From: a virus
Lineage: Duplodnaviria; Caudoviricetes
DNA: 64,000 bases
Direction: 5' to 3' (one strand)
IMG/VR virus record: IMGVR_UViG_3300020577_005688
Coordinates: 64,001 to 128,000 of that record
Positions within the stretch are counted from its first letter, which is position 1; the number at the start of each line of letters is the position of its first letter. The position numbers and the translations under genes were made by a program. Shown here piece after piece: positions 1 through 53,800 of the stretch. A model generated the notes under the pieces. The model made no database searches and was not told the origin of the DNA. It saw nothing but the letters and a program-made list of their open reading frames with translations.

Positions 1-297
1 CAACAGCGTATCCCACTTCTCTTTGATTGCGGGGTCCTTCTCATCAATGACAATCTCAGTGATGGGGTACTCAGACATCTTGTGAATGACCGCATTGATG
101 AGCGGATTCACGAGATAGTAGTACCGACACCACCGCAGGAGGGCCTTGAGGGAAGGAGGAAGGTAAGTATGGCCGATGTCGAAGAATGGAGATGGATACC
201 GAACTCCACTCCTCGACATGCCGTCAGCAGTTCTTCCACGGTTCCCAGAGAACCTGGAAGTTCCACCAAATCCAAGAGAGACGTTGTCCATTGACAT
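1..297 (-). CDS. Probable portal protein, N-terminal 99 codons (runs off the left edge; absent from the ORF track)
   Basis: Manual translation from ATG at 297: MSMDNVSLGFGGTSRFSGNRGRTADGMSRSGVRYPSPFFDIGHTYLPPSLKALLRWCRYYYLVNPLINAVIHKMSEYPITEIVIDEKDPAIKEKWDTLL. The start overlaps the upstream stop (TAATG). The Y..NP.I..VI.K..EYP.T pattern resembles portal N-termini. Confidence 0.65.
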   Translation of the reverse strand, partial: MSMDNVSLGFGGTSRFSGNRGRTADGMSRSGVRYPSPFFDIGHTYLPPSLKALLRWCRYYYLVNPLINAVIHKMSEYPITEIVIDEKDPAIKEKWDTLL

Positions 298-1274
298 TAT
301 TGATCTGCCTTCTCTTGTGGGAGTTTCTTAGGCTTGAATCCCGTCACTTTGTTGATGCCCTTACCGACCAACTTACCGGCTTGATCACCAACAACGCTGC
401 CGAGAATAGAACCTGAGATACCACGCTTGGCGGTTGCGAGGTTTCCAATTGTCGAACCTACGAATCGAGAAACTCTTTCTGCTCTTGAAGTCTGACCCGT
501 AGGGTCTTTCTTCAGAGCAGCGACGGCTTGAGGAGCGGTGAATGCGACTGTCATTCCGTGATTTGTCAACTTACCAGCTCGCTGAAGACCCGTAAGGTTA
601 CTCTTTCGAGATACGGCATCCTGGACGTCTGTCTTCATCCTCCCCAACTCTTGGCGTGCGTTTGAGATCGGACTCGTCAGGTCACTCGCCGCTCCCTTGA
701 GATTCCTTCCGATGCCTTTTACGTACTCTTTGGCACCGCCCTCTTCGGACTCTGCGATCTTCTCATGATTACGCTTCTTCCTCTTATGAAGAGCGTAGGC
801 ACCAGCGGCGAGGCCAGTTGCAGCAAGACCAGCAACACCTTTCTTCCAGTGTTTCTTAGCAAAAGAAGGAAGTTTTTGAGTAGATGTCGGTGATGCGTTT
901 GTTTGAGTAGGTGGTGATTTATTAGACGGTTTTTTCTGCGTACTATACTCTTTTCCACCTACTTCTTTGAGTCTTTTTCCTCTAGAAAATTCGTCGTAAC
1001 CATCCCCTACAGCATCTGATACAACTGTTCTACTCTTACGCAAACGTTCTGATTTCGCAATCTCAGGCCTCCGATCGACAAAGGGCCGTTCTTTTCCTTT
1101 GAGAGTATGGCGATATCCTCCAAGAACGTCTCCTTCGAGTCTAGCGCCGCTATCATCACTATTGAGCGAATGCCTCATTAGAACACCTCTCCGAGCATGG
1201 CGTCGAATCCACTCTTCAGAGACGGCAATCTTCTCAAGCTCATCAAGGAATGATCTAACGGTCATGAGGTTCAT
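297..1274 (-). CDS. Basic, Gly/Ala-rich putative internal head/ejection protein with FLDELEKIA leader
   Basis: ATG at 1274 overlaps the upstream TGA (ATGA). Has N-terminal SFLDELEKIA, an internal HEKIA, hydrophobic GVAGLAATGLAAGAYAL and Gly-zipper segments. Lies directly upstream of the portal. Confidence 0.55.
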   Translation of the reverse strand: MNLMTVRSFLDELEKIAVSEEWIRRHARRGVLMRHSLNSDDSGARLEGDVLGGYRHTLKGKERPFVDRRPEIAKSERLRKSRTVVSDAVGDGYDEFSRGKRLKEVGGKEYSTQKKPSNKSPPTQTNASPTSTQKLPSFAKKHWKKGVAGLAATGLAAGAYALHKRKKRNHEKIAESEEGGAKEYVKGIGRNLKGAASDLTSPISNARQELGRMKTDVQDAVSRKSNLTGLQRAGKLTNHGMTVAFTAPQAVAALKKDPTGQTSRAERVSRFVGSTIGNLATAKRGISGSILGSVVGDQAGKLVGKGINKVTGFKPKKLPQEKADQ

Positions 1275-2206
1275 ACAGTTCCTAGCCAAGACTTGAGAGC
1301 AACGAGCTGCTCAGAGAGTTGCCTTCTTCGGATGTTCATGTAGTCACGTGCGATAAGCAGCTTTGCGACTTGAACATCTACCTGTGTCTCTTGGAGATCA
1401 ACTTCTTTCGTTGGATGTTCCTTTACCTCATTCCAACGATGTTCGATGGGATCTGGGTCGAACTGAAGAACGAGTTTTACGTTCTGCCCCTTACCCTCTC
1501 GAACCAAATCTGGGTCTGGTTGAAATGAGAAACCATTCTCTGGGTCGAACCTCTTCGTACACGTGTCACAGATTCCGTCGTGGAAGAGAGCAGAGTCCTC
1601 ACTCCCGCAATCAAGGCACACGTATCTTGGGTGGCTCACCTCAACCTGCACAAAATCAAGAGGAGGTGGAACAAAGAACACATCTTCGTTCAAGACAGAA
1701 GCAGCAATGTACGCCTTCACCTCATCATTGAAAGGCTCTGGGCGAATTGAGTTCATGATGTCCACTCCCGCAAACAACTGGTCGAGGGATGGAGCCTGCA
1801 TGAACTCCCAGCGAGGAATATTGTTGTTCAGAGCCTGAATGACCTTCTCAAACACCTGCCAACTCTCCCAAGGCTTTCCAGTCGTATGAAGCGTCTTGAC
1901 GGCTTGAATCTTGGACCTGGCATGTTCTGAGACTTGAGACGAGAAGACCCTCTGAATCTCTTGGAAGATAGTCGACGTTTCCCAAGAGAACCAGTCAACT
2001 CCAAACGCCTTCAAGAGGGCGAGGTCAATGACTACTGGATGGGTGTCGTGGTGTGTAAAGATGTTCCGAACTGTGAGAGGTGTTTGAACGTCTGGATTAT
2101 CCTTCTTGAGTTCGGATTCCATCGCAGACCCCTCCGACGGTGCAGTTGGCTTCTTTGCCTCTGCACCACGAAGACGCTCAAACAGGTCAAGTTCTGGATT
2201 CTTCAT
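1271..2206 (-). CDS. Hypothetical head-module protein with a Zn-ribbon insert
   Basis: 311 aa ORF abutting both neighbours; contains CLDC...CDTC. Confidence 0.6.
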   Translation of the reverse strand: MKNPELDLFERLRGAEAKKPTAPSEGSAMESELKKDNPDVQTPLTVRNIFTHHDTHPVVIDLALLKAFGVDWFSWETSTIFQEIQRVFSSQVSEHARSKIQAVKTLHTTGKPWESWQVFEKVIQALNNNIPRWEFMQAPSLDQLFAGVDIMNSIRPEPFNDEVKAYIAASVLNEDVFFVPPPLDFVQVEVSHPRYVCLDCGSEDSALFHDGICDTCTKRFDPENGFSFQPDPDLVREGKGQNVKLVLQFDPDPIEHRWNEVKEHPTKEVDLQETQVDVQVAKLLIARDYMNIRRRQLSEQLVALKSWLGTV

Positions 2207-2755
2207 TTATGCCTTCTTGAACGTGTTGGCGATTCGAGCCATGACGCCCATTGCCTGTGGGCGAGCGGCGCTTCGAACAGGCCCAGCAGAAGGCAACGCA
2301 ACCGAGCTCCTCACTGCAGGAGCGGCTCTCTGCACAGGCTGATGCCCAACAGACGTGGAGGGCATGAAGTCGGAGTAGTGGGAGGGATCCTTCTTCATCA
2401 AAGCAGGAGCGGCCTGAGTCTGAGGCTTCCCTGCTGCTCTCTGAGAATCGACGAGCATGTGATTTTTCATCATGGCCGCATTGGATACTGTAGCAGCTTT
2501 CTTAGTGAGGAGCCTCTTCCCAATACCCTTAAGCATATCCTTGTTGTGGATCATCTCCCCAGCAAGGATGGAGCCGGTAAACGCAGCGGACGCGCCGTCC
2601 TTGACTCGCTCGCCTTTGGATTTGTGCTTATCAAAAGCACCCGCACCTTCAATCGCAGTCAGACCTCCGAGACCTGTCATCGACAGTCCAGCAGGCAGCC
2701 CACCGACAGCAATCTTCTCAAGCTCATCAAAGAACGACCCCATGTGGATGCTCAT
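2207..2755 (-). CDS. Putative internal head protein with FFDELEKIA leader
   Basis: Begins MSIHMGSFFDELEKIA, followed by Gly-rich hydrophobic and basic low-complexity sequence. Confidence 0.55.
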   Translation of the reverse strand: MSIHMGSFFDELEKIAVGGLPAGLSMTGLGGLTAIEGAGAFDKHKSKGERVKDGASAAFTGSILAGEMIHNKDMLKGIGKRLLTKKAATVSNAAMMKNHMLVDSQRAAGKPQTQAAPALMKKDPSHYSDFMPSTSVGHQPVQRAAPAVRSSVALPSAGPVRSAARPQAMGVMARIANTFKKA

Positions 2756-2765
2756 TGTCGTGTCC

Positions 2766-4406
2766 TTAGTTTGCGTTCATCGCGTCGAACTTGCCGTTGG
2801 CAAGTCTTGCAAGAATGACCTTTGAGTCATCTGGCATTGACTCAAAGATGGTGATTGGGTCTTTGATGAATGAATTCGTGAACTCGCTTGCGAAGTGCTT
2901 GTGAACGAGAGGTCTACCGTTTCTCGCAAGCCACCTCAACTCTTCCTCGCTCACGTAGTCACCAGTACGACCAGTCCAAGACCAAGCAGCAGCCTGCTTA
3001 CCGAACGTTGCGTAGTAGGGGTCCGCGACCTCTCCACCCCAAACCCAACGCAGTCCGGAAATCTCGTCGGCTTCTGAAAGGAGGGAGGCGAACTCTTCGG
3101 GCTCAATAGATGCCCTCTTTTCACGAAGCTCTGTGTACACAGGAGCGTATTCTGGAGGGGCTACTGCGAGACGATTTGCGAGGTGAGCATCGACGTCGAT
3201 TGCATAGTCTGTCGACCCATACCTTTGAATCGTCTCCGAAAGAGGAAGGCCAAGCTCATTCGCACGAGCTGCGGTCTTCACAGCAAAGATGTGCGCCTCG
3301 ACAGGGTCAATGGTCTTGTAGTTGTCCTCGAAGTACTCGATGGCCTTCTGCACGTCAGCCATTGCGTCGAGGGGGAACCGACCCCCAAGAGCCGTGCGCT
3401 CTGCGGAGGCTCTCTTCACCTGGATTTCAGGAGTCTGGCCAGAAACATTGACAATCGAAGAGCTCTTGATGAGTCTCTTGTGTTCTCGTGCTTGGGCAAT
3501 GTCTCCGAATGGATTGTTCGATTCGATGTCTCGAAGGGCTTTCTTGCCCTCAGCGGTCGCACGTCGGAACCCAGTTGCTAGGTCGCTTCCTTTGGCTCCC
3601 ATCGAGTGGGCCGTTACGCGATGCAGCGCATAGCGTTGCGCCTTTGATGCGTTCTCTGGGTATCCCTTGATGTTGGCAAGCTCCTTGAGCCCCCTAGGAA
3701 GTCCAGCTTCTTTTGGCATCGACCCCGGATTCAGCTTGTGGAAGCTGTCGAGGTTAACGTCTTTCTTCCCGTGGTGTTTCCCGAGAGCGTACCCACCGGC
3801 CCCTCCGACCAAAACTCCCCCTGCCCCGGAAGCAATTGCAAGATGTTTGATGTTCTTCAGCAGCTTCTCCGCTTCAGCCGGAGTGAACGAGGCACTTGCG
3901 GCGGTCTTCATCTGAGATGCCGTAGGAATGACTCGACCAGAATCGGCACCACCTTGAATGCTGGTAAGGTTGGTACGTTGGCTCCACTCAACGTCATCGT
4001 TTGGAGCGGGCTGCTTGGATGGATTGCGGGTCTTCGACATTCCCGTCTTTGCAGCTGTCTTAAGCCAGCCTGGAACTGGGAGCTCGAACTCTTCACACGC
4101 ATCCATCAAGTTGGATGCGGCCGTCTTGACTGCTTCTTGGGGAAGAAGAACTGCGCTCTCATTGAAGTAGAGAATCGAGAGGGCGGTGTTACCTGCGTCA
4201 ACACATGCAAACTTTCGCATGTGAGTGCCGTTGTTTACCATCGTCAGTGCGTATGCTTCATCACGGAGAACTTCCCGTTCCTCTGGAGAAAGGATGTGGG
4301 CTTCCTTTACGATATCGGGCAGGTCTGCGGAGGTGGGGCAGGCCTTCTTGAGCAGAGTCCCAGAGAGGTCGTCGTAGAAGTCAAAAACAACGCCAGCAGT
4401 ACGCAT
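2766..4406 (-). CDS. Putative head protein with many K-x-A sites (possible processed precursor or scaffold-like protein)
   Basis: 546 aa; AAGGAG SD upstream; KEAH, KTAA x4, KEAG, KRAS x2, KQAA. Confidence 0.55.
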   Translation of the reverse strand: MRTAGVVFDFYDDLSGTLLKKACPTSADLPDIVKEAHILSPEEREVLRDEAYALTMVNNGTHMRKFACVDAGNTALSILYFNESAVLLPQEAVKTAASNLMDACEEFELPVPGWLKTAAKTGMSKTRNPSKQPAPNDDVEWSQRTNLTSIQGGADSGRVIPTASQMKTAASASFTPAEAEKLLKNIKHLAIASGAGGVLVGGAGGYALGKHHGKKDVNLDSFHKLNPGSMPKEAGLPRGLKELANIKGYPENASKAQRYALHRVTAHSMGAKGSDLATGFRRATAEGKKALRDIESNNPFGDIAQAREHKRLIKSSSIVNVSGQTPEIQVKRASAERTALGGRFPLDAMADVQKAIEYFEDNYKTIDPVEAHIFAVKTAARANELGLPLSETIQRYGSTDYAIDVDAHLANRLAVAPPEYAPVYTELREKRASIEPEEFASLLSEADEISGLRWVWGGEVADPYYATFGKQAAAWSWTGRTGDYVSEEELRWLARNGRPLVHKHFASEFTNSFIKDPITIFESMPDDSKVILARLANGKFDAMNAN

Positions 4407-48813: not shown

Positions 48814-49656
48814 TTACTCCAAATGAGGTTTCATCTTCCGAAAGATGGAAGACTTGAGCTTTGAAACTTTGGAGCTGTCCATCTTGAGCTGCTTTGCAAT
48901 CTCCCCAGGCTTCAGAGAAGGCTTTCCAAAGAGGCCAAAGGTGTACTCGTGAACAGCCCTCTCCTCTGGAGTGAGCTGGTGATAGATGAGATGAATCACT
49001 TCCTGGTCTCTTGAGGATAGGAAGGCAGCCGGAGAGGCATCCATAGAGCCAGAGGCAATCAAGCCCTTTCTCTGGTCCTTGGAGAGGCGCTTAATCTCCT
49101 TCATCGAGAACCCTGTGTGTTCTGCCAGGGTGTGTGCGTCTGGTTCGAAGCCAAGCCTCTCGGTGAGCTCCGCTTTGGCGGAATTGAACTTACCAATCTT
49201 GGCAGCAATCGGTTCTGTAATTCGAGCTACATTCTGATGTGTCTGGATGAACCGATTGGCCTTCTTCAGGTAGTTCTGAACCCAAGTTCCGAGCTGAGTA
49301 CCCTTGTCAGGGTCGTACCTGTGGAGAGCCTCTACCGCTAGTCTCTTGTGTTCAAAGTCGATGGCCGCGTTTGGGATCTCAACATTGTTCTTGTAGATGC
49401 GAGCTCTGTTCTCAATCAGAGGCTGCATCGACTTCAACAACGGCTCAAGATGCTCAGGCTTCTTACCGCCTGTATTCCATGTCTTCCAGAGTTCGAGCTC
49501 GGTGTGCTTCTTCGCACCGAGTTCCTTCTTCTTCTCGTCCTTCGTCTTCTCGAACTTGAAGACAGGAATAGGCTTCGGGCTGGGCACACGATTCGCCGCC
49601 GAGATCTTCTCAAGGACCCACTGAATGGCCTCTGAATTTTCGGTGGCAGAGTTCAT
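48814..49656 (-). CDS. Sigma70-family RNA polymerase sigma factor (FliA/SigF-like domain layout)
   Basis: Region 2 EALHRYDPDKG.QLGTW, region 3 ELTERLGFEPD..TLAEHTG, region 4 LTPEERAV..YTFGL...EIAKQL.MDSSKVSKL. Confidence 0.8.
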   Translation of the reverse strand: MNSATENSEAIQWVLEKISAANRVPSPKPIPVFKFEKTKDEKKKELGAKKHTELELWKTWNTGGKKPEHLEPLLKSMQPLIENRARIYKNNVEIPNAAIDFEHKRLAVEALHRYDPDKGTQLGTWVQNYLKKANRFIQTHQNVARITEPIAAKIGKFNSAKAELTERLGFEPDAHTLAEHTGFSMKEIKRLSKDQRKGLIASGSMDASPAAFLSSRDQEVIHLIYHQLTPEERAVHEYTFGLFGKPSLKPGEIAKQLKMDSSKVSKLKSSIFRKMKPHLE

Positions 49657-49660
49657 GTGA

Positions 49661-50116
49661 TTACTTTGAAGCTCCTGAGAGGATGTTGCTATCTCCAGAA
49701 GGACCTGAGGTGGGTGCTGTCGTTGGCTTCTTCAATGAGATAGCCGGACGAGCCACACTTCCAGACCTTCCGGCTACCTTCAGCAACTCTGGAAATCTCC
49801 TCTGAGCCTCTGTGAGGTGAGCGCCCGACTCGAAGAAGTGGTGAACGTTGTAGGCGATTTTGATTTTCTCAAAACGCTCAAACTCCTGCTCACTGGCGGA
49901 CGCCATCTTCAACAAGTTATCGGCCATCGTCTGAGCACCGGGTGCTTGGACAAAGAGCTTGTTCATCAAGTCCTGGTCACGCTTACGGCTTTGAGGAACG
50001 TTCTCAAACAGCGCATTCGTATCCCTTCGAGTGTCCTCTCGGGTCAAACGAACGTACTTCATGAAGTTCAGTTCTTCTTCGCCGAGGTTACCGACTGCTT
50101 CTTTGTTCTTACTCAT
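49661..50116 (-). CDS. Hypothetical protein with K-x-A motifs
   Basis: LLKMAS, KIKIAY, LLKVAG. Confidence 0.55.
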   Translation of the reverse strand: MSKNKEAVGNLGEEELNFMKYVRLTREDTRRDTNALFENVPQSRKRDQDLMNKLFVQAPGAQTMADNLLKMASASEQEFERFEKIKIAYNVHHFFESGAHLTEAQRRFPELLKVAGRSGSVARPAISLKKPTTAPTSGPSGDSNILSGASK

Positions 50117-50502
50117 TTTGGGCCCACCTTTGGGAGAAGCCCCTTTCGACCAATCTTGGGGGCAAGTTGATGAATGCTCTTTGACTTGCTGGCCATCCCC
50201 AAGAACTGAGATGGGGTCTTTCCAACCAAGGCCGCTGTCTTCTTCAATGACTCTCGATATGCCTTGCGTCTCTTTTCCTTCTCAGTCTGTGCTTTGTGCC
50301 AGCCAAAGCCACCAAGCGCACCTACGAGGGTTCCGACAGTCTTTCTACGAGGGGAGGCTCCCTGAGACGTAGACAGGGAAAGGTCCGCCAGCGTCCTACC
50401 AACGACAGAGCCCGTCAACATCGGAGCCCCGACATCGACTGCCTTCTCGCTGAGCGGCTTCTTCCTCTCAGCTGTCTTGAAGAAGATGGAAAGGGATTCC
50501 AT
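50113..50502 (-). CDS. Basic Gly-zipper protein with K-T-A motifs
   Basis: IFFKTAE, LKKTAA, GTLVGALGGFG. Confidence 0.55.
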   Translation of the reverse strand: MESLSIFFKTAERKKPLSEKAVDVGAPMLTGSVVGRTLADLSLSTSQGASPRRKTVGTLVGALGGFGWHKAQTEKEKRRKAYRESLKKTAALVGKTPSQFLGMASKSKSIHQLAPKIGRKGLLPKVGPK

Positions 50503-50504
50503 GA

Positions 50505-50810
50505 TTACATCCCCTGCTGACGACGGACCTCTCGGCCCATTCTCCAGTCATCCTTGGCCTTCTTGAGCTGGTCTCCGGCAAGAGCGCCAGTCGCAAGGAG
50601 TGCCAGAGCCTTACCCTTGCCCTTGAGCAAGGACTTGCTCTCCCCAGAGCTCATCTTTGACATCGTCGCCTTCTTCACCAACTTCTTCTTGGCCAACAGT
50701 GTGGAAGCCTTGAAGGGGCGAACGCCGCTTCGAGAGAATCCAGCAATCTTCTCCAGCTCATCATTGAAACCACGACGAAGTGCGGTCAGCTCAGTATCTG
50801 TCATGTTCAT
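50505..50810 (-). CDS. Basic small protein with FNDELEKIA leader
   Basis: GAGGA SD before ATG 50810; RGFNDELEKIAG; ALALLATGALAG. Confidence 0.6.
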   Translation of the reverse strand: MNMTDTELTALRRGFNDELEKIAGFSRSGVRPFKASTLLAKKKLVKKATMSKMSSGESKSLLKGKGKALALLATGALAGDQLKKAKDDWRMGREVRRQQGM

Positions 50811-50869: not shown

Positions 50870-53800
50870 TTAGCCCCTCAAACCTGGACCTCCTGAAAGG
50901 GCTTCGACGTATGCTCGGACTTGATCCAATTTCTCTTTCCGAACGTCGTATCCAGGAGGGATTGGGGACTTGTCTCCTGTGTTGTTGATTCTTGGGAGCA
51001 ATTTATCCGGTTCTTGGAGAAGTCCTGCGAGCTTACCCTGATCGATAGCCTTTTCGTCAATTGCAAGACTATGGAATCCGGGCTTTCCTTTCGTAACCGT
51101 CGGAACTCCCTTTCCATCGTACGAGATGTCGAGGTCGGAGGTTCCAAAGATGTCTGCCATCGTTGCAATCGGTCGGTAGGTGAACGACCTCACAAACTGA
51201 TCGATGTCTTTTCCTTGAGACCTCACCATCCCGTAAAAGTAGGCGACAACATTCACAGCACGTTCAATCGACAGCTTGGAGATGTTGTCCTGCCTGGTCG
51301 CGAGGGTTGCTTGAATTTCTTCGAACTTTGTCTTTGCATCGAACACATCCCCTTCAGGAGATTCGGAAGCTGAGACGATTTGTTCAGCCAACCCAGAGAA
51401 GGCGAGCTCATCAATGATTGAGGTTGTCCCGAAGAAAGGACGATAGATTTCTTCCCCAATCTTTGCGTTTGCATACTTTGGAGAGAACCAAGTCGGACGA
51501 ATGACTTCTTCAACAGGCACTTGCTGAGTCACAGTAATATTGACGTCCTCGTGTACGATGACAGAGCGAAACACCTGCTTCCCTGCATACGTACCAGTCT
51601 TCACTGTCACAAGGTCTGGTGATACGACCTCGATGCCGACGATGGTCCCAGAGGCACCGAACAGGGCCTTTGACCCGGTCGTGATTGTGATGCCAGGTCC
51701 TTTTGGAATCGAGACAGTCCTCTGAACTCCAGCGATTCGACCATTTGGGTCGACTAGATTGTTATCTTGGGATTCAGTTGTCTGTGAAGTCTGAGGAATC
51801 TCTTTTGTCAAAGTTGTGGAAGGAACTGACGGATTGGCGGAGTTCCTTCGGTACGATGCCTTCGCAGTCGTCTTCTGTGACTTCACTTTAGAGGTCTTCG
51901 CTGTCTTGACCTGTGGGGTCATTCCAACGAGAGCGGCCAACAGGCTGTCTCTGGACGAAGCATTGGCCTGTGCGAGTGCTGAATCAGATGTGATAGCAAC
52001 TCGAATTCGACGAGTCTTCTTTCCAGTGTTCTCGGAGAAGATTCCTACGAACTCATCATCCGACCCAAGGTGACGTCGAGCATGGTGCATCTCGACAGTG
52101 GTTGTTCCACCATTCTGGTCGATGGTGTGACTGACAGCCCCAATCATTCCCAACAACTGGTACGGCGCTCCAAGTAGGCTCTTATCCGTTCCATTCCTTT
52201 GAACCAGGTCGAGGACCTTCTTGTCTGTGGAGTCAATCGTATCCGATTCTTGAACCTGTAGGGCGGTGCGAAGAACAGATTCCTTCGGCATGAACGGCTT
52301 GAGAATGACAACGCCTGGGAATCCGCACACGATGAACGGATTCAACTTCCCGGCAATGGCTACTTTCCTTGGACCGAATCGGTACTTGAAGAAGTGGAAC
52401 AGAGCGGCTCGATTGAGCCAGCTAAGGCGAGCGCCTCTGACTTTATCTCCCTCTGCTCCGGTCTTCTTGTCTACGGTTGCTGTATTTGCAAGCCACTCTG
52501 TTCTTGGAATAATCCCAGTATGCCTCTCATGAGGCATGAGGACTCTATAGCCACCAACTCCGGCTTGTTTTTGGATCTTCTCCATGTCTAGGCCGATGCT
52601 CGGGGCCATCACTACGCCACGACCAAACTGGTCCCTTCCGGTAAGAGTGTCATATGCTTGAGTGAGTGACCTGGTCACCTCACTCAAATACATTCTGTCA
52701 AAAGATACCTGAGTAAAGTGCTCAGGGAAGATGACGTTGCAACGTGGAGCTGGCGCGAAGAAACAGTCCGGGCGGATGATTTGAGAGCGGAGCCTGGCCG
52801 ATGAGGAAGTCGACTGAACACCAGTCTTGAACGTTACCTTTGGCTGATCTGGGGATGCGATTGCATTGAGTGCTTTTTGGATGGAGATGATAGAGTCGTT
52901 CACGGACCTCGTGAAGTTGTTTACAGAAGGATTTTGGTAGGAGAGATCAGCCGCTAGGTTTTGCAGAACATACTTGGCCTGCTCAACAAAAGACGAGATT
53001 GTCTTTGCGATAGAACCCACGGCGTTCAACTTCAGAACAACTCCGCCAAGCTCATCAGACGTCTGCGTTGCAAATCGAATGATTGGAGTCTTGTTAGAGA
53101 AGTCAAAGTCCAACGCACTCAGGCACCTATTCTTGATGGTTGAGAGAGTGGCCGCTGCGGCTTTAACATTCGGATTTTGAGAGAGCTCTGTAGTTGCGTA
53201 TGTCCCCGTCTCGGTTCCCTCGATTGTTGCGTCGTACTTGGCTGCGGGGTTCGGAACAACATCATAGTAAATATACTTACAGAGCAAGTTCAACATGTCT
53301 CTGAAGGTTACTTGTTGACCGATGTTCTGAAGACCATTTCGAAGCCACTCGTTGAATACCGTCCCTGAGAACAGTCTCGATGCGGAGCTGTCGTTCTCTT
53401 CGGCTACAATTTGAGAGAGGAGTCGAGTTCTGAGTTCTGCAACGGTAAAGAAATCATTGACTCCTTTATGATGTGTTGGAACTCCTCCCATTGCTTCCAA
53501 CATGACGATAATGCCACCAGCGAGACCAGACACATTTTGAAGCCCAGGTGTTTTTGGTGTCTGATTCAGCCACTTGGTGATGACATTACCCTGCTGATTG
53601 ACAATGTCATCGAAGAGAGAGGCGTTCGAACCGTAGACTGCTGACTGGTTGTAGAACGCGTTTCCGTTCGGGCCGTACTCAATTGCAGTAGCGTGACAGG
53701 CGTCCCAATAACTGGAGAAATCGAGACATTGCAGAACGAGGCTTCTCTGACTCGAACTCTGTCCAAACGCAAATCCAATGACTTCTCCACAGAAGAGGAG

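What the first reader, a model, noticed from the sequence alone, without database searches (positions are those of the whole stretch)
297..4406. Shared (F)xDELEKIA leader and K-x-A code on otherwise unrelated virion-module proteins
Seen: three otherwise dissimilar proteins start with near-identical leaders, SFLDELEKIA (297-1274), SFFDELEKIA (2207-2755) and GFNDELEKIA (50505-50810). The match extends to DNA (GCAATCTTCTC[A/C]AGCTCATCA at about 1225, 2709 and 50743), although one copy is about 48 kb away. Neighbouring proteins (2766-4406, 49661-50116, 50113-50502) are dense in K-x-A[A/S/G] sites. Known: T4 and phiKZ-type phages target and mature internal head proteins through short N-terminal leaders cut by the prohead protease, after Glu in those phages. 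Inference: this lineage uses a different, Lys-x-Ala-specific leader as a portable capsid-loading and maturation tag. The location next to the portal gene fits.
Basis: partly seen in the sequence, partly recalled or inferred. Interest (0 to 1): 0.82.

Follow-up and report, generated by a model that had tools for sequence, protein, structure and literature searches.

The report
Shared capsid-loading leader on phage proteins
A large group of uncultured wastewater and freshwater phages puts the same short N-terminal tag (F-x-D-E-L-E-K-I-A) on many unrelated, mostly small and very basic proteins. The tag ends in the motif that the phage's own head protease most likely cuts, so it is probably a "load into the capsid, then trim" signal like the one known from phage T4, but with a different sequence and cutting rule.

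Summary
Three window ORFs (297-1274, 2207-2743, 50505-50810, minus strand) start with [S/G]-F-x-DELEKIA. Two more copies lie elsewhere in the 141-kb contig.

The same 9-mer occurs in 116 IMG/VR loci. It is nearly always 2-16 codons after an ATG, and 90 of those loci carry homologues of this phage's genes. Codons vary freely, so selection acts on the peptide.

Plain K-x-A is not enriched (234 observed, 223 shuffled). K-[ILVMT]-A-[SAGE] is enriched (63 vs 19.5) and concentrated in the head-morphogenesis block (28 vs 2.7).

The phage encodes a prohead protease with the T4 gp21/herpes assemblin fold (Z 10.0 and 8.8). Near-invariant h-x-K-x-A-[S/G] islands bracket its catalytic domain, much like the R and M sites of herpes UL26.

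Internal sites lack the F-x-D-E part, so the leader has two parts: an address followed by a cut site. In 91% of tagged proteins the part after the tag has pI above 9. A few are helicases, NUDIX, GNAT or peptidases.

Best reading: a T4-CTS-like capsid-targeting propeptide with an Ala-type cut. Cleavage and packaging are inferred, not shown.

This scan had already noted the same motif in this genome and in others.

The parts
1..297 (-). First 99 codons of the portal gene. The whole gene is genome 62201-64297, 698 aa.
   Evidence: tblastn gives 30% identity over 66% of the query to the annotated portal proteins of Salmonella phage Arash (gp204), and a match to Bacillus phage G gp14.
297..1274 (-). 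h066, a leader-bearing protein of 325 aa. It starts MNLMTVRS-FLDELEKIA-V. The body has pI 10.4 and Gly-zipper-like stretches. Its C-terminal third is conserved next to the portal gene in relatives.
1224..1250 (-). Leader motif FLDELEKIA of h066.
1271..2206 (-). h067, 311 aa, with no leader. A conserved protein with a Cys-rich ribbon that lies between the two leader genes. Homologues occur in 14 leader loci. Context only.
2207..2743 (-). h068, a leader-bearing protein of 178 aa. It starts MGS-FFDELEKIA-V. The body has pI 10.6 and is rich in Gly and Ala.
2708..2734 (-). Leader motif FFDELEKIA of h068.
2766..4406 (-). h069, a 546-aa two-domain protein with four K-T-A-A sites (4116-4127, 4050-4061, 3897-3908, 3267-3278).
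   Evidence: 4 sites vs 0.4 expected. In the alignment with homologues from 9 loci, K-x-A-[A/G] and QMKTA-[A/S/G] are kept where the flanking linker is gapped and variable.
3897..3908 (-). Site QMKTA|AS of h069, at the border between the conserved N-domain region and the hypervariable linker.
50505..50810 (-). h117, a leader-bearing protein of 101 aa. It starts MNMTDTELTALRRG-FNDELEKIA-G. The body has pI 11.2.
   Evidence: The orthologue in L086 is 77% identical.
50742..50768 (-). Leader motif FNDELEKIA of h117.
50113..50502 (-). h116, 129 aa, with a short degenerate leader MESLSIFFKTA|ERKKPL (50470-50502) and a second site KKTA|A.
   Evidence: Its orthologue in locus L020 carries the full leader MSS-FSDELEKIA|SELKKKKPL. 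The two align from the residue after Ala onwards.
49661..50116 (-). h115, 151 aa, with two internal sites (LLKMA|S and LLKVA|G).
   Evidence: 2 sites vs 0.09 expected. Coordinates.
48814..49656 (-). Phage sigma factor in the same operon. Context only. Its N-terminus (QWVLEKISAA) resembles only the site half of the leader, so I do not count it as a leader.
   Evidence: Pfam Sigma70_r3 and phrog_351. N-termini of orthologues.

Best explanation
The peptide M-x(2-15)-[A/S/G]-F-x-D-E-L-E-K-I-A is a portable N-terminal propeptide made of two parts.

The C-terminal half (L-E-K-I-A) is a copy of the recognition site of the phage's own prohead protease. That protease is h042, at genome 37182-38762, outside the window. 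The site is h-[E/D]-K-[T/V/I/L]-A, followed by a small residue or Glu. The cut most likely falls after Ala, as in herpesvirus assemblin.

The N-terminal half (F-x-D-E) is absent from the internal sites of scaffold, capsid and protease proteins. With Leu and Ile it gives an i, i+4, i+7 hydrophobic stripe. It most likely docks the tagged protein to the scaffolding core of the assembling prohead.

Tagged proteins are mostly small and very basic, with occasional enzymes. They would be co-assembled into the prohead and trimmed when the protease fires. They would then stay with the DNA as internal head proteins, presumably to be ejected into the host.

What is shown:
- The leader exists and is under peptide-level selection.
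- It sits at N-termini of unrelated proteins across a phage clade.
- The K-h-A motif is concentrated in head genes.
- That motif is conserved at the domain borders of a gp21/assemblin-fold protease.

What is inferred: cleavage, the scissile bond, docking, packaging and ejection.
For: 1. The leader is portable.
- IMG/VR holds 116 loci with the exact 9-mer.
- Of 100 unique contexts, 78 have both an ATG 2-16 codons upstream and A/S/G at position -1. In prokaryote genome contigs the figure is 12 of 82.
- The same loci hold 94 further near-copies of the form F.DE[LF].K[IL][ASG].
- Bodies are unrelated. Pfam finds SNF2/ResIII helicases, Peptidase_C92, NUDIX, GNAT, glyoxalase, Zn-peptidase and NlpC/P60, and most have no hit.
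- Mean column identity outside the motif is about 5%.

2. Selection acts on the peptide. All synonymous codons are used.

3. The leader is specific to this clade. 90 of 116 loci carry homologues of this genome's MCP, protease, TerL, portal, RNAP, sigma and other genes.

4. The site motif is enriched where expected.
- Head-morphogenesis block: 28 observed vs 2.7 expected.
- Sigma operon: 5 vs 0.6.
- Replication-like genes: 5 vs 2.5, not significant.
- Tail genes: at expectation.
- Scaffold-like h039 has 8 sites, h038 has 5 and h056 has 9.

5. The protease is identified.
- AF2 model: pLDDT 87.
- VIA-align: T4 gp21, Z 10.0, rmsd 2.8, 135 aa aligned. VZV protease Z 8.8. HCMV protease Z 7.1. The next unrelated chain is at Z 4.5.
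- The Foldseek top rows are herpes proteases and gp21.
- H114 and S170 are invariant in 73 diverse homologues.

6. Islands that look like autoprocessing sites.
- K33 is present in 73/73 and A35 in 72/73 homologues, with L/F/M at residue 31 and S/G/A at 36. The alignment is gapped after that.
- K247 is present in 70/73, A249 in 67/73 and S250 in 46/73, right after the last strand of the fold. Divergence follows.
- More islands lie in the gapped linker, and one lies about 21 aa from the C-terminus.

7. The leader has two parts. Fifty-four internal sites show P4 Glu, P2 T/L/V/I and P1' A/S/E/G, with no preference at P9, P7 or P6.

8. Orthologue swap. h116 has FFKTA|ERKKPL. Its orthologue has FSDELEKIA|SELKKKKPL.

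9. Cargo character. Median body length is 123 aa. 91% have pI above 9, against 28% of control proteins. This matches the basic T4 internal proteins (PMC9026906).

10. The MCP N-terminus carries FFEKVA and KEKIA|EFGG in 120 homologues.
Against: - No proteomic, structural or genetic evidence exists for cleavage or packaging in this clade, and no member is cultured.
- P1' after the leader is loose (A, L, S, V, I, G, E, K), looser than at internal sites.
- The i, i+4, i+7 pattern suggests a helix, whereas proteases of this fold bind extended substrates. The two halves may therefore act at different moments, or the leader may not be cut at all.
- The refined site motif was defined after inspection.
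- The strongly conserved small residue at position -1 and the hydrophobic residue at -3 are not explained by this model.
- In the distant cultured relative Arash, scaffold-like and protease proteins were reported in virion preparations with high coverage. This does not fit simple complete degradation, although 116 'virion' proteins suggests contamination.
Confidence: 0.62

Rival explanations
1. Docking peptide that is not removed. The leader is an amphipathic helix that permanently anchors cargo to the portal, the inner capsid surface or the scaffold, like encapsulin cargo-loading peptides or portal-bound proteins. Its resemblance to the K-h-A motif would reflect a shared binding groove rather than proteolysis.
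For: - F, L and I fall at i, i+4 and i+7, which can be read directly from the sequence.
- P1' is variable.
- Leader genes often lie beside the portal gene.
Against: - The same K-h-A-[S/G] motif sits at the exact end of the protease fold and in gapped linkers. That is typical of cleavage sites, not of docking sites.
- Conservation stops abruptly at Ala.
- Orthologues swap the whole segment up to Ala.
- The portal neighbourhood is only one of about five positions.
Confidence: 0.15
2. Processing-only propeptide. The leader is a protease substrate that keeps very basic, possibly toxic or DNA-binding proteins inactive until the prohead protease fires. It carries no targeting information, and entry into the head is passive or mediated by the body.
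For: - The leader is acidic (net charge -2) and the bodies are strongly basic.
- The site half is shared with other head proteins.
Against: - F-x-D-E is conserved as strongly as the site, yet it is absent from 54 internal sites. It therefore has a role beyond site recognition.
- Bodies are too diverse (helicases, NUDIX, GNAT, peptidases) to share a body-encoded entry route.
Confidence: 0.13
3. Not a signal at all. The motif could be the remnant N-terminus of one paralogous family, a nucleic-acid element (translation or regulatory signal) that happens to be translated, or mimicry of a host protein leader cut by a host protease (as staphylococcal phage 80alpha mimics the L27 leader cut by Prp, from my own knowledge).
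For: - 20 or 21 of the 21 nt are identical among the three window copies.
- The five copies in this genome share GAT and ATT.
Against: - Across relatives all synonymous codons occur.
- Bodies belong to unrelated Pfam families.
- In 596 Gb of prokaryote genomes the 9-mer is mostly internal and scattered, or sits in a Nostoc repeat. No conserved host protein family starts with it.
Confidence: 0.04

Closest known systems
Phage T4 capsid targeting sequence (CTS) on IPI, IPII, IPIII and Alt, removed by prohead protease gp21 (PMC9026906)
   Same: - A short N-terminal peptide shared by otherwise unrelated proteins.
- A two-part logic. In T4, targeting maps to residues 4 and 7 and processing to residues 8 and 10.
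- The peptide ends in the protease's own site.
- The cargo is mostly small basic proteins.
- The protease has the same fold (Z 10.0 to gp21).
   Different: - No sequence similarity: MKTYQEFIAE with a cut after L/I-x-E in T4, against F-x-DELEKIA with a presumed cut after K-h-A here.
- A different phage lineage: fused beta-beta' RNAP, Arash-like portal and MCP.
- Here nothing is experimentally shown.
Propeptides of head and ejection proteins in phiKZ-like giant phages (SPN3US gp245; PMC10052503)
   Same: - Many head proteins carry N-terminal propeptides cut by the prohead protease.
- Some propeptides contain several candidate cleavage motifs, and three of those in gp53 have mass-spectral support.
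- The protease processes itself.
   Different: From my own knowledge, the motif there is A/S/G-x-E and the propeptides are long and dissimilar to each other. Here one 9-residue consensus is reused almost verbatim on hundreds of proteins.
Herpesvirus pre-assemblin (HSV-1 UL26): protease, R site, scaffold part, M site, capsid-binding tail, with cuts at Ala|Ser (my own knowledge of the sites; fold match)
   Same: - Protease fold (VZV Z 8.8, HCMV Z 7.1).
- A small P1 Ala followed by Ser.
- A conserved site exactly at the end of the about 250-residue protease domain (A249|S250 here).
- A further site about 21 aa from the C-terminus of a scaffold-like extension.
   Different: - Lys at P3 is near-invariant here.
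- No portable leader on cargo proteins is known in herpesviruses.
- The sites here are inferred from conservation only.
Encapsulin cargo-loading peptides
   Same: A short conserved peptide that addresses diverse cargo to the interior of an HK97-fold shell.
   Different: Those peptides are usually C-terminal, are not removed, and are unrelated in sequence (my own knowledge). No protease is involved.

Membership tests
CTS-type capsid-targeting propeptide system (T4 paradigm) | One short N-terminal peptide shared by otherwise unrelated proteins of the same phage | tested here: met
   Five copies in this contig. About 200 copies in related loci, on unrelated bodies.
CTS-type capsid-targeting propeptide system (T4 paradigm) | The peptide ends in the cleavage motif of the phage's own prohead protease | tested here: inconclusive
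   The leader ends in L-E-K-I-A. The same h-E-K-h-A motif brackets the protease domain and is about 10-fold enriched in head genes. That it is the cleavage motif is inferred from conservation, not measured.
CTS-type capsid-targeting propeptide system (T4 paradigm) | Tagged proteins are incorporated into proheads, trimmed and present in virions | not testable with these tools
   No cultured member and no proteome. Runs holding this DNA are environmental metagenomes and metatranscriptomes kept as contigs.
CTS-type capsid-targeting propeptide system (T4 paradigm) | Sequence relatedness to the T4 CTS and an L/I-x-E site | tested here: not met
   The motif is F-x-DELEKIA with K-h-A. It works like a CTS but is not a member of the T4 CTS sequence family.
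Prohead serine protease of the gp21 / HK97 / herpes assemblin fold | The fold | tested here: met
   AF2 pLDDT 87.3. VIA-align: 5jbl_A Z 10.0 (135 aa, rmsd 2.8), 1vzv_A Z 8.8, 8j3s_A Z 7.1, next unrelated chain Z 4.5. Foldseek top rows belong to the same families but with E about 0.08-0.3.
Prohead serine protease of the gp21 / HK97 / herpes assemblin fold | Conserved catalytic His and Ser | tested here: inconclusive
   H114 and S170 are invariant in 73 diverse homologues, and H113 nearly so. I could not superpose them on the gp21 catalytic residues because no coordinates are accessible.
Prohead serine protease of the gp21 / HK97 / herpes assemblin fold | Gene lies in the head module beside scaffold and major capsid protein | tested here: met
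   Gene order on the minus strand is protease h042, acidic scaffold-like h041, leader gene h040, scaffold-like h039 and h038, h037, then MCP h036 (phrog_2522). The protease has tblastn matches to annotated prohead or capsid maturation proteases. Phage G gp19 is called a maturation protease in PMC12484599.
Host-protease leader mimicry (Prp/L27-type, as in phage 80alpha) | A conserved host protein carrying the same N-terminal leader | tested here: not met
   In the genome-contig scan only 12 of 82 unique contexts look N-terminal. These are scattered, mostly on short MAG contigs, and no recurrent host family appears. The host itself is unknown.

The most novel reading that the evidence does not exclude
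F-x-D-E-L-x-K-I-[A/S/G] is the universal addressing code of a very large uncultured phage clade. The protease family has over 3000 clusters at 50% identity. If so, the packaged and injected protein set of any member could be read straight from its sequence. That set would include fast-turning-over basic proteins and enzymes (SNF2 helicases, NUDIX, GNAT, peptidases). The bodies are swapped behind a constant leader even between strains, which would point to an arms-race arsenal delivered with the DNA. The head protease would cut herpes-style at Ala|Ser in a UL26-like protease-scaffold fusion.
Probability: 0.45. Interest if true: 0.72.

Novelty: new variant of a known kind. Interest (0 to 1): 0.6.

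Why it matters
If true, the leader gives a sequence-only way to list the proteins that a widespread group of wastewater and freshwater phages carries inside the capsid and delivers into the host. Such proteins are usually invisible without virion proteomics and are prime candidates for early anti-defence functions.

It would also define a new specificity (K-h-A|small) for the gp21/assemblin protease fold. The protease-scaffold architecture closely parallels herpesvirus UL26, which adds to the phage-herpesvirus link.

It would further offer a second, unrelated peptide for loading foreign proteins into phage heads.

The general principle, a capsid targeting sequence plus prohead protease, has been known from T4 for decades. 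The advance is therefore a new variant and its scale, not a new principle.

Tried and rejected
- Pfam and PHROGs on the leader proteins and their window neighbours gave nothing except the sigma factor.
- A profile of the protease family against PDB sequences gave no hit.
- The first AF2 model, from 26 close homologues, was poor (pLDDT 61). Its Foldseek search was uninformative. It was superseded by the model from 73 diverse homologues.
- A full-text search for 'DELEKIA' found 0 papers.
- The motif was sought in the Arash portal-to-capsid region (50 kb). Only a chance match inside the portal gene turned up.
- The Arash supplement holds gene tables but no peptide lists, so N-termini could not be checked.
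- Generic K-x-A enrichment was rejected.
- An RNA- or DNA-level element was rejected because synonymous codons vary.
- Host-protein mimicry was rejected.
- Cluster look-ups gave no names or hosts.
- Read laying returned contigs only, so it gave no information on expression.
- The window has no tRNA genes.
- My first crude gene list contained an antisense artefact (g041) and missed h058. It was replaced by a codon-usage-scored list.
- I do not count the sigma factor's N-terminal LEKIS as a leader.

Full report
**What the window is.** The window is bases 64001-128000 of a single 141,350-bp phage contig. Notes of this scan say a complete relative is about 197 kb. That fits the closest IMG/VR contig, 196,807 bp, whose protease is 84% identical.

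The genome encodes:
- TerL, a sheath-like protein and a gpV-like spike
- a major capsid protein (phrog_2522)
- a one-chain beta-beta' RNA polymerase interrupted by an intein
- a sigma factor

The nearest cultured relatives are distant. They are Salmonella phage Arash and Vibrio phages D69, D148 and D181 (portal about 30% identical), and Bacillus phage G. The DNA occurs in wastewater, river, freshwater and activated-sludge runs from several studies.

**The observation.**
- h066 (297-1274) starts MNLMTVRS-FLDELEKIA.
- h068 (2207-2743) starts MGS-FFDELEKIA.
- h117 (50505-50810) starts MNMTDTELTALRRG-FNDELEKIA.

A six-frame scan plus a small HMM found two more copies outside the window. One is GFSDELQKIG, on a 90-aa ORF between the protease/scaffold genes and the capsid gene. 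The other is MISFES-FSDELVKIA, on a 224-aa ORF just downstream of the RNA polymerase.

h116 (50113-50502) has a short form, MESLSIFFKTA|ERKKPL. Its orthologue in locus L020 has the full form, MSS-FSDELEKIA|SELKKKKPL. The two proteins align from the residue after Ala onwards.

**How general it is.** A degenerate DNA pattern for F-x-DELEKIA hit 116 IMG/VR loci, where I expected only a few by chance.
- Of 100 unique contexts, 85 have an ATG 2-16 codons upstream, 91 have A/S/G just before Phe, and 78 have both.
- The same pattern in 596 Gb of prokaryote genomes gave mostly internal, scattered matches and a Nostoc repeat. Only 12 of 82 contexts had both features.
- 90 of the 116 viral loci carry homologues of this genome's genes: MCP 16, protease 16, TerL 15, sigma 15, portal 14, RNAP 12. 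Leader genes recur at about five positions: by the portal, in the head module, after the RNAP, in the sigma operon, and near sheath-region genes.
- The same loci hold 94 more near-copies. Their variation defines the core as F-x-D-E-[L/F]-x-K-[I/L/V]-[A/S/G].
- All synonymous codons are used, so the peptide is what is selected.

**What is tagged.** The parts of the proteins after the tag are unrelated to each other. Most have no Pfam hit. The hits that exist are SNF2/ResIII helicases (3), Peptidase_C92 (2), NUDIX, GNAT, glyoxalase, a Zn-peptidase, NlpC/P60, a Gly-zipper and kinase-like P-loops.

Median body length is 123 aa. 91% have pI above 9, against 28% of this genome's proteins of similar size. 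44% have a G-x3-[GAS]-x3-G pattern, against 20% of controls.

**The K-x-A question.** K-x-A with any x is at expectation (234 vs 223). K-[ILVMT]-A is enriched (105 vs 62). K-[ILVMT]-A-[SAGE] is strongly enriched (63 vs 19.5, z 10.4). The reversed motif and the Arg variant are flat.

The excess is local:

| Block | Observed | Expected |
|---|---|---|
| Head morphogenesis, 11 genes | 28 | 2.7 |
| Sigma operon | 5 | 0.6 |
| TerL-to-h069 block | 16 | 4.3 |
| Replication-like genes | 5 | 2.5 (not significant) |
| Tail and other blocks | at expectation | |

The richest proteins are scaffold-like h039 (8 sites), h038 (5), acidic h041 (4), h045 (4), h056 (9) and the window's h069 (4). In h069 homologues the K-x-A islands survive at the edge of a gapped, hypervariable linker.

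The classes at x and at +1 were chosen after inspection. That is a weakness. However, the protease family alignment gives the same classes.

**The protease.** h042 (genome 37182-38762) matches annotated prohead or capsid maturation proteases weakly by sequence. Its family is huge: 1529 clusters at 90% identity and 3024 at 50%.

With 73 diverse homologues the N-domain folds with pLDDT 87. The structural matches are T4 gp21 (Z 10.0, 135 residues, rmsd 2.8), VZV protease (Z 8.8) and HCMV protease (Z 7.1). Unrelated chains start at Z 4.5. Foldseek ranks the same families first, though weakly. H114 and S170 are invariant.

Two sequence islands stand out in that alignment:
- [L/F/M]-E-K33-[T/V]-A35-[S/G/A]. 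K is present in 73/73 and A in 72/73 homologues. The surroundings are variable and the model has low confidence there.
- [M/L]-x-K247-[V/I/L]-A249-S250. K is present in 70/73 and A in 67/73. This island follows the last strand of the fold directly, and the sequences diverge after it.

In closer relatives further K-[T/V/A]-A-S and E-K-L-A-[S/E] islands sit in a gapped linker, and F-x-K-T-A-[S/T] lies about 21 residues from the C-terminus.

The layout is protease, site, scaffold-like half with more sites, site, then a short tail. To my knowledge this is the layout of herpesvirus UL26, with its R and M sites cut at Ala|Ser.

The MCP (374 aa) carries FFEKVA and KEKIA|EFGG within its first 27 residues in all 120 homologues examined.

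**Two halves of the leader.** Fifty-four K-h-A sites inside head-module proteins show Glu at P4 (17 of 54), T/L/V/I at P2 and A/S/E/G at P1'. They show nothing at P9, P7 or P6. The F-x-D-E part is therefore not needed for a site. It is specific to leaders and is the natural candidate for the address.

This mirrors the T4 CTS. There, residues 4 and 7 govern targeting and residues 8 and 10 govern processing, and the cargo (IPI-III) is basic and present at about 300 copies per head (PMC9026906).

**Reading.** The most economical account is a T4-like capsid-targeting propeptide with a new sequence and an Ala-type cut by a gp21/assemblin-fold protease.

The rivals are less well supported but not excluded. 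They are a docking helix that is never removed, and a pure pro-sequence without address function. Paralogy, a nucleic-acid element and host-leader mimicry are rejected.

Nothing here shows cleavage or packaging directly.

**Prior knowledge.** No paper in the searchable library contains the motif. The principle is known from T4 (PMC9026906) and from phiKZ-like phages such as SPN3US (PMC10052503).

This scan had already noted the same motif on this genome and on other DNA. One follow-up on an adjacent window reached the same reading. I treated those notes as leads and re-derived the points above from tool results.

Noticed in passing
genome 37182-38762 (outside the window; L003:1182-2762, minus strand): The prohead protease is a protease-scaffold fusion laid out like herpesvirus UL26. 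A near-invariant K-V/L-A|S lies at residue 249-250, at the end of the protease fold. More K-x-A islands lie in the linker, and another site lies about 21 aa from the C-terminus.
   Followed up: yes
window 524-1252: Contigs of related strains from river, freshwater and wastewater runs skip or replace the middle of the h066 body (joints 869->1206 with 252 other letters, 524->1212, 716->1252). The flanks are kept. The cargo body looks like a strain-level variable cassette.
   Followed up: partly
L130, L134, L135, L139, L147, L150, L160, L194, L197, L203, L204 (Nostoc contigs): A repeated short element in many Nostoc genomes translates to F[F/V]DELEKIAVDKDILSV followed by stops, with a stop only 5 codons upstream in several copies. 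It has the same 9-mer in a non-phage-like context. It may be chance or an unrelated repeat. Unexplained.
   Followed up: no
L012, L084, L094, L070/L072, L043/L044: Some related phages carry tandem arrays of 3-5 small leader-bearing genes within a few kb. This suggests local expansion of the cargo set.
   Followed up: no
L006 (Salmonella phage Arash, record 145213-150170): Arash head-module proteins gp220 (six sites) and gp225 (three sites) are rich in K-[I/T/V]-A-[S/A/E], but no F-x-DELEKIA leader was seen in the 50 kb examined. The site may be older than the address, and Arash could serve as a cultured test bed for the site.
   Followed up: partly
window 48814-49656 and orthologues in L020, L043, L050, L068, L110: Sigma-factor N-termini often carry a degenerate E-K-x-A/S within the first about 25 residues, without the F-x-D-E part. 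It is unclear whether this is a site.
   Followed up: partly
genome 52629-59990 (outside the window): One-chain beta-beta' RNA polymerase (2453 aa) with a LAGLIDADG intein inserted in the beta' part. A leader-bearing gene (51955-52629) follows it directly.
   Followed up: partly
genome 47371-48174 and 48178-50832 (outside the window): A J-domain (DnaJ) protein sits in the virion-gene block next to h056. h056 is an 884-aa protein with nine K-h-A sites, all in its C-terminal half. It is conserved in 14 leader loci and of unknown function.
   Followed up: no
five leader copies: window 1224-1250, 2708-2734, 50742-50768; genome 36132-36161 and about 52585-52611: All five copies use GAT for Asp and ATT for Ile (relative use 0.39 each in this genome), while the Leu and Ala codons differ. 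This is a mild hint that leaders spread within the genome as DNA.
   Followed up: partly
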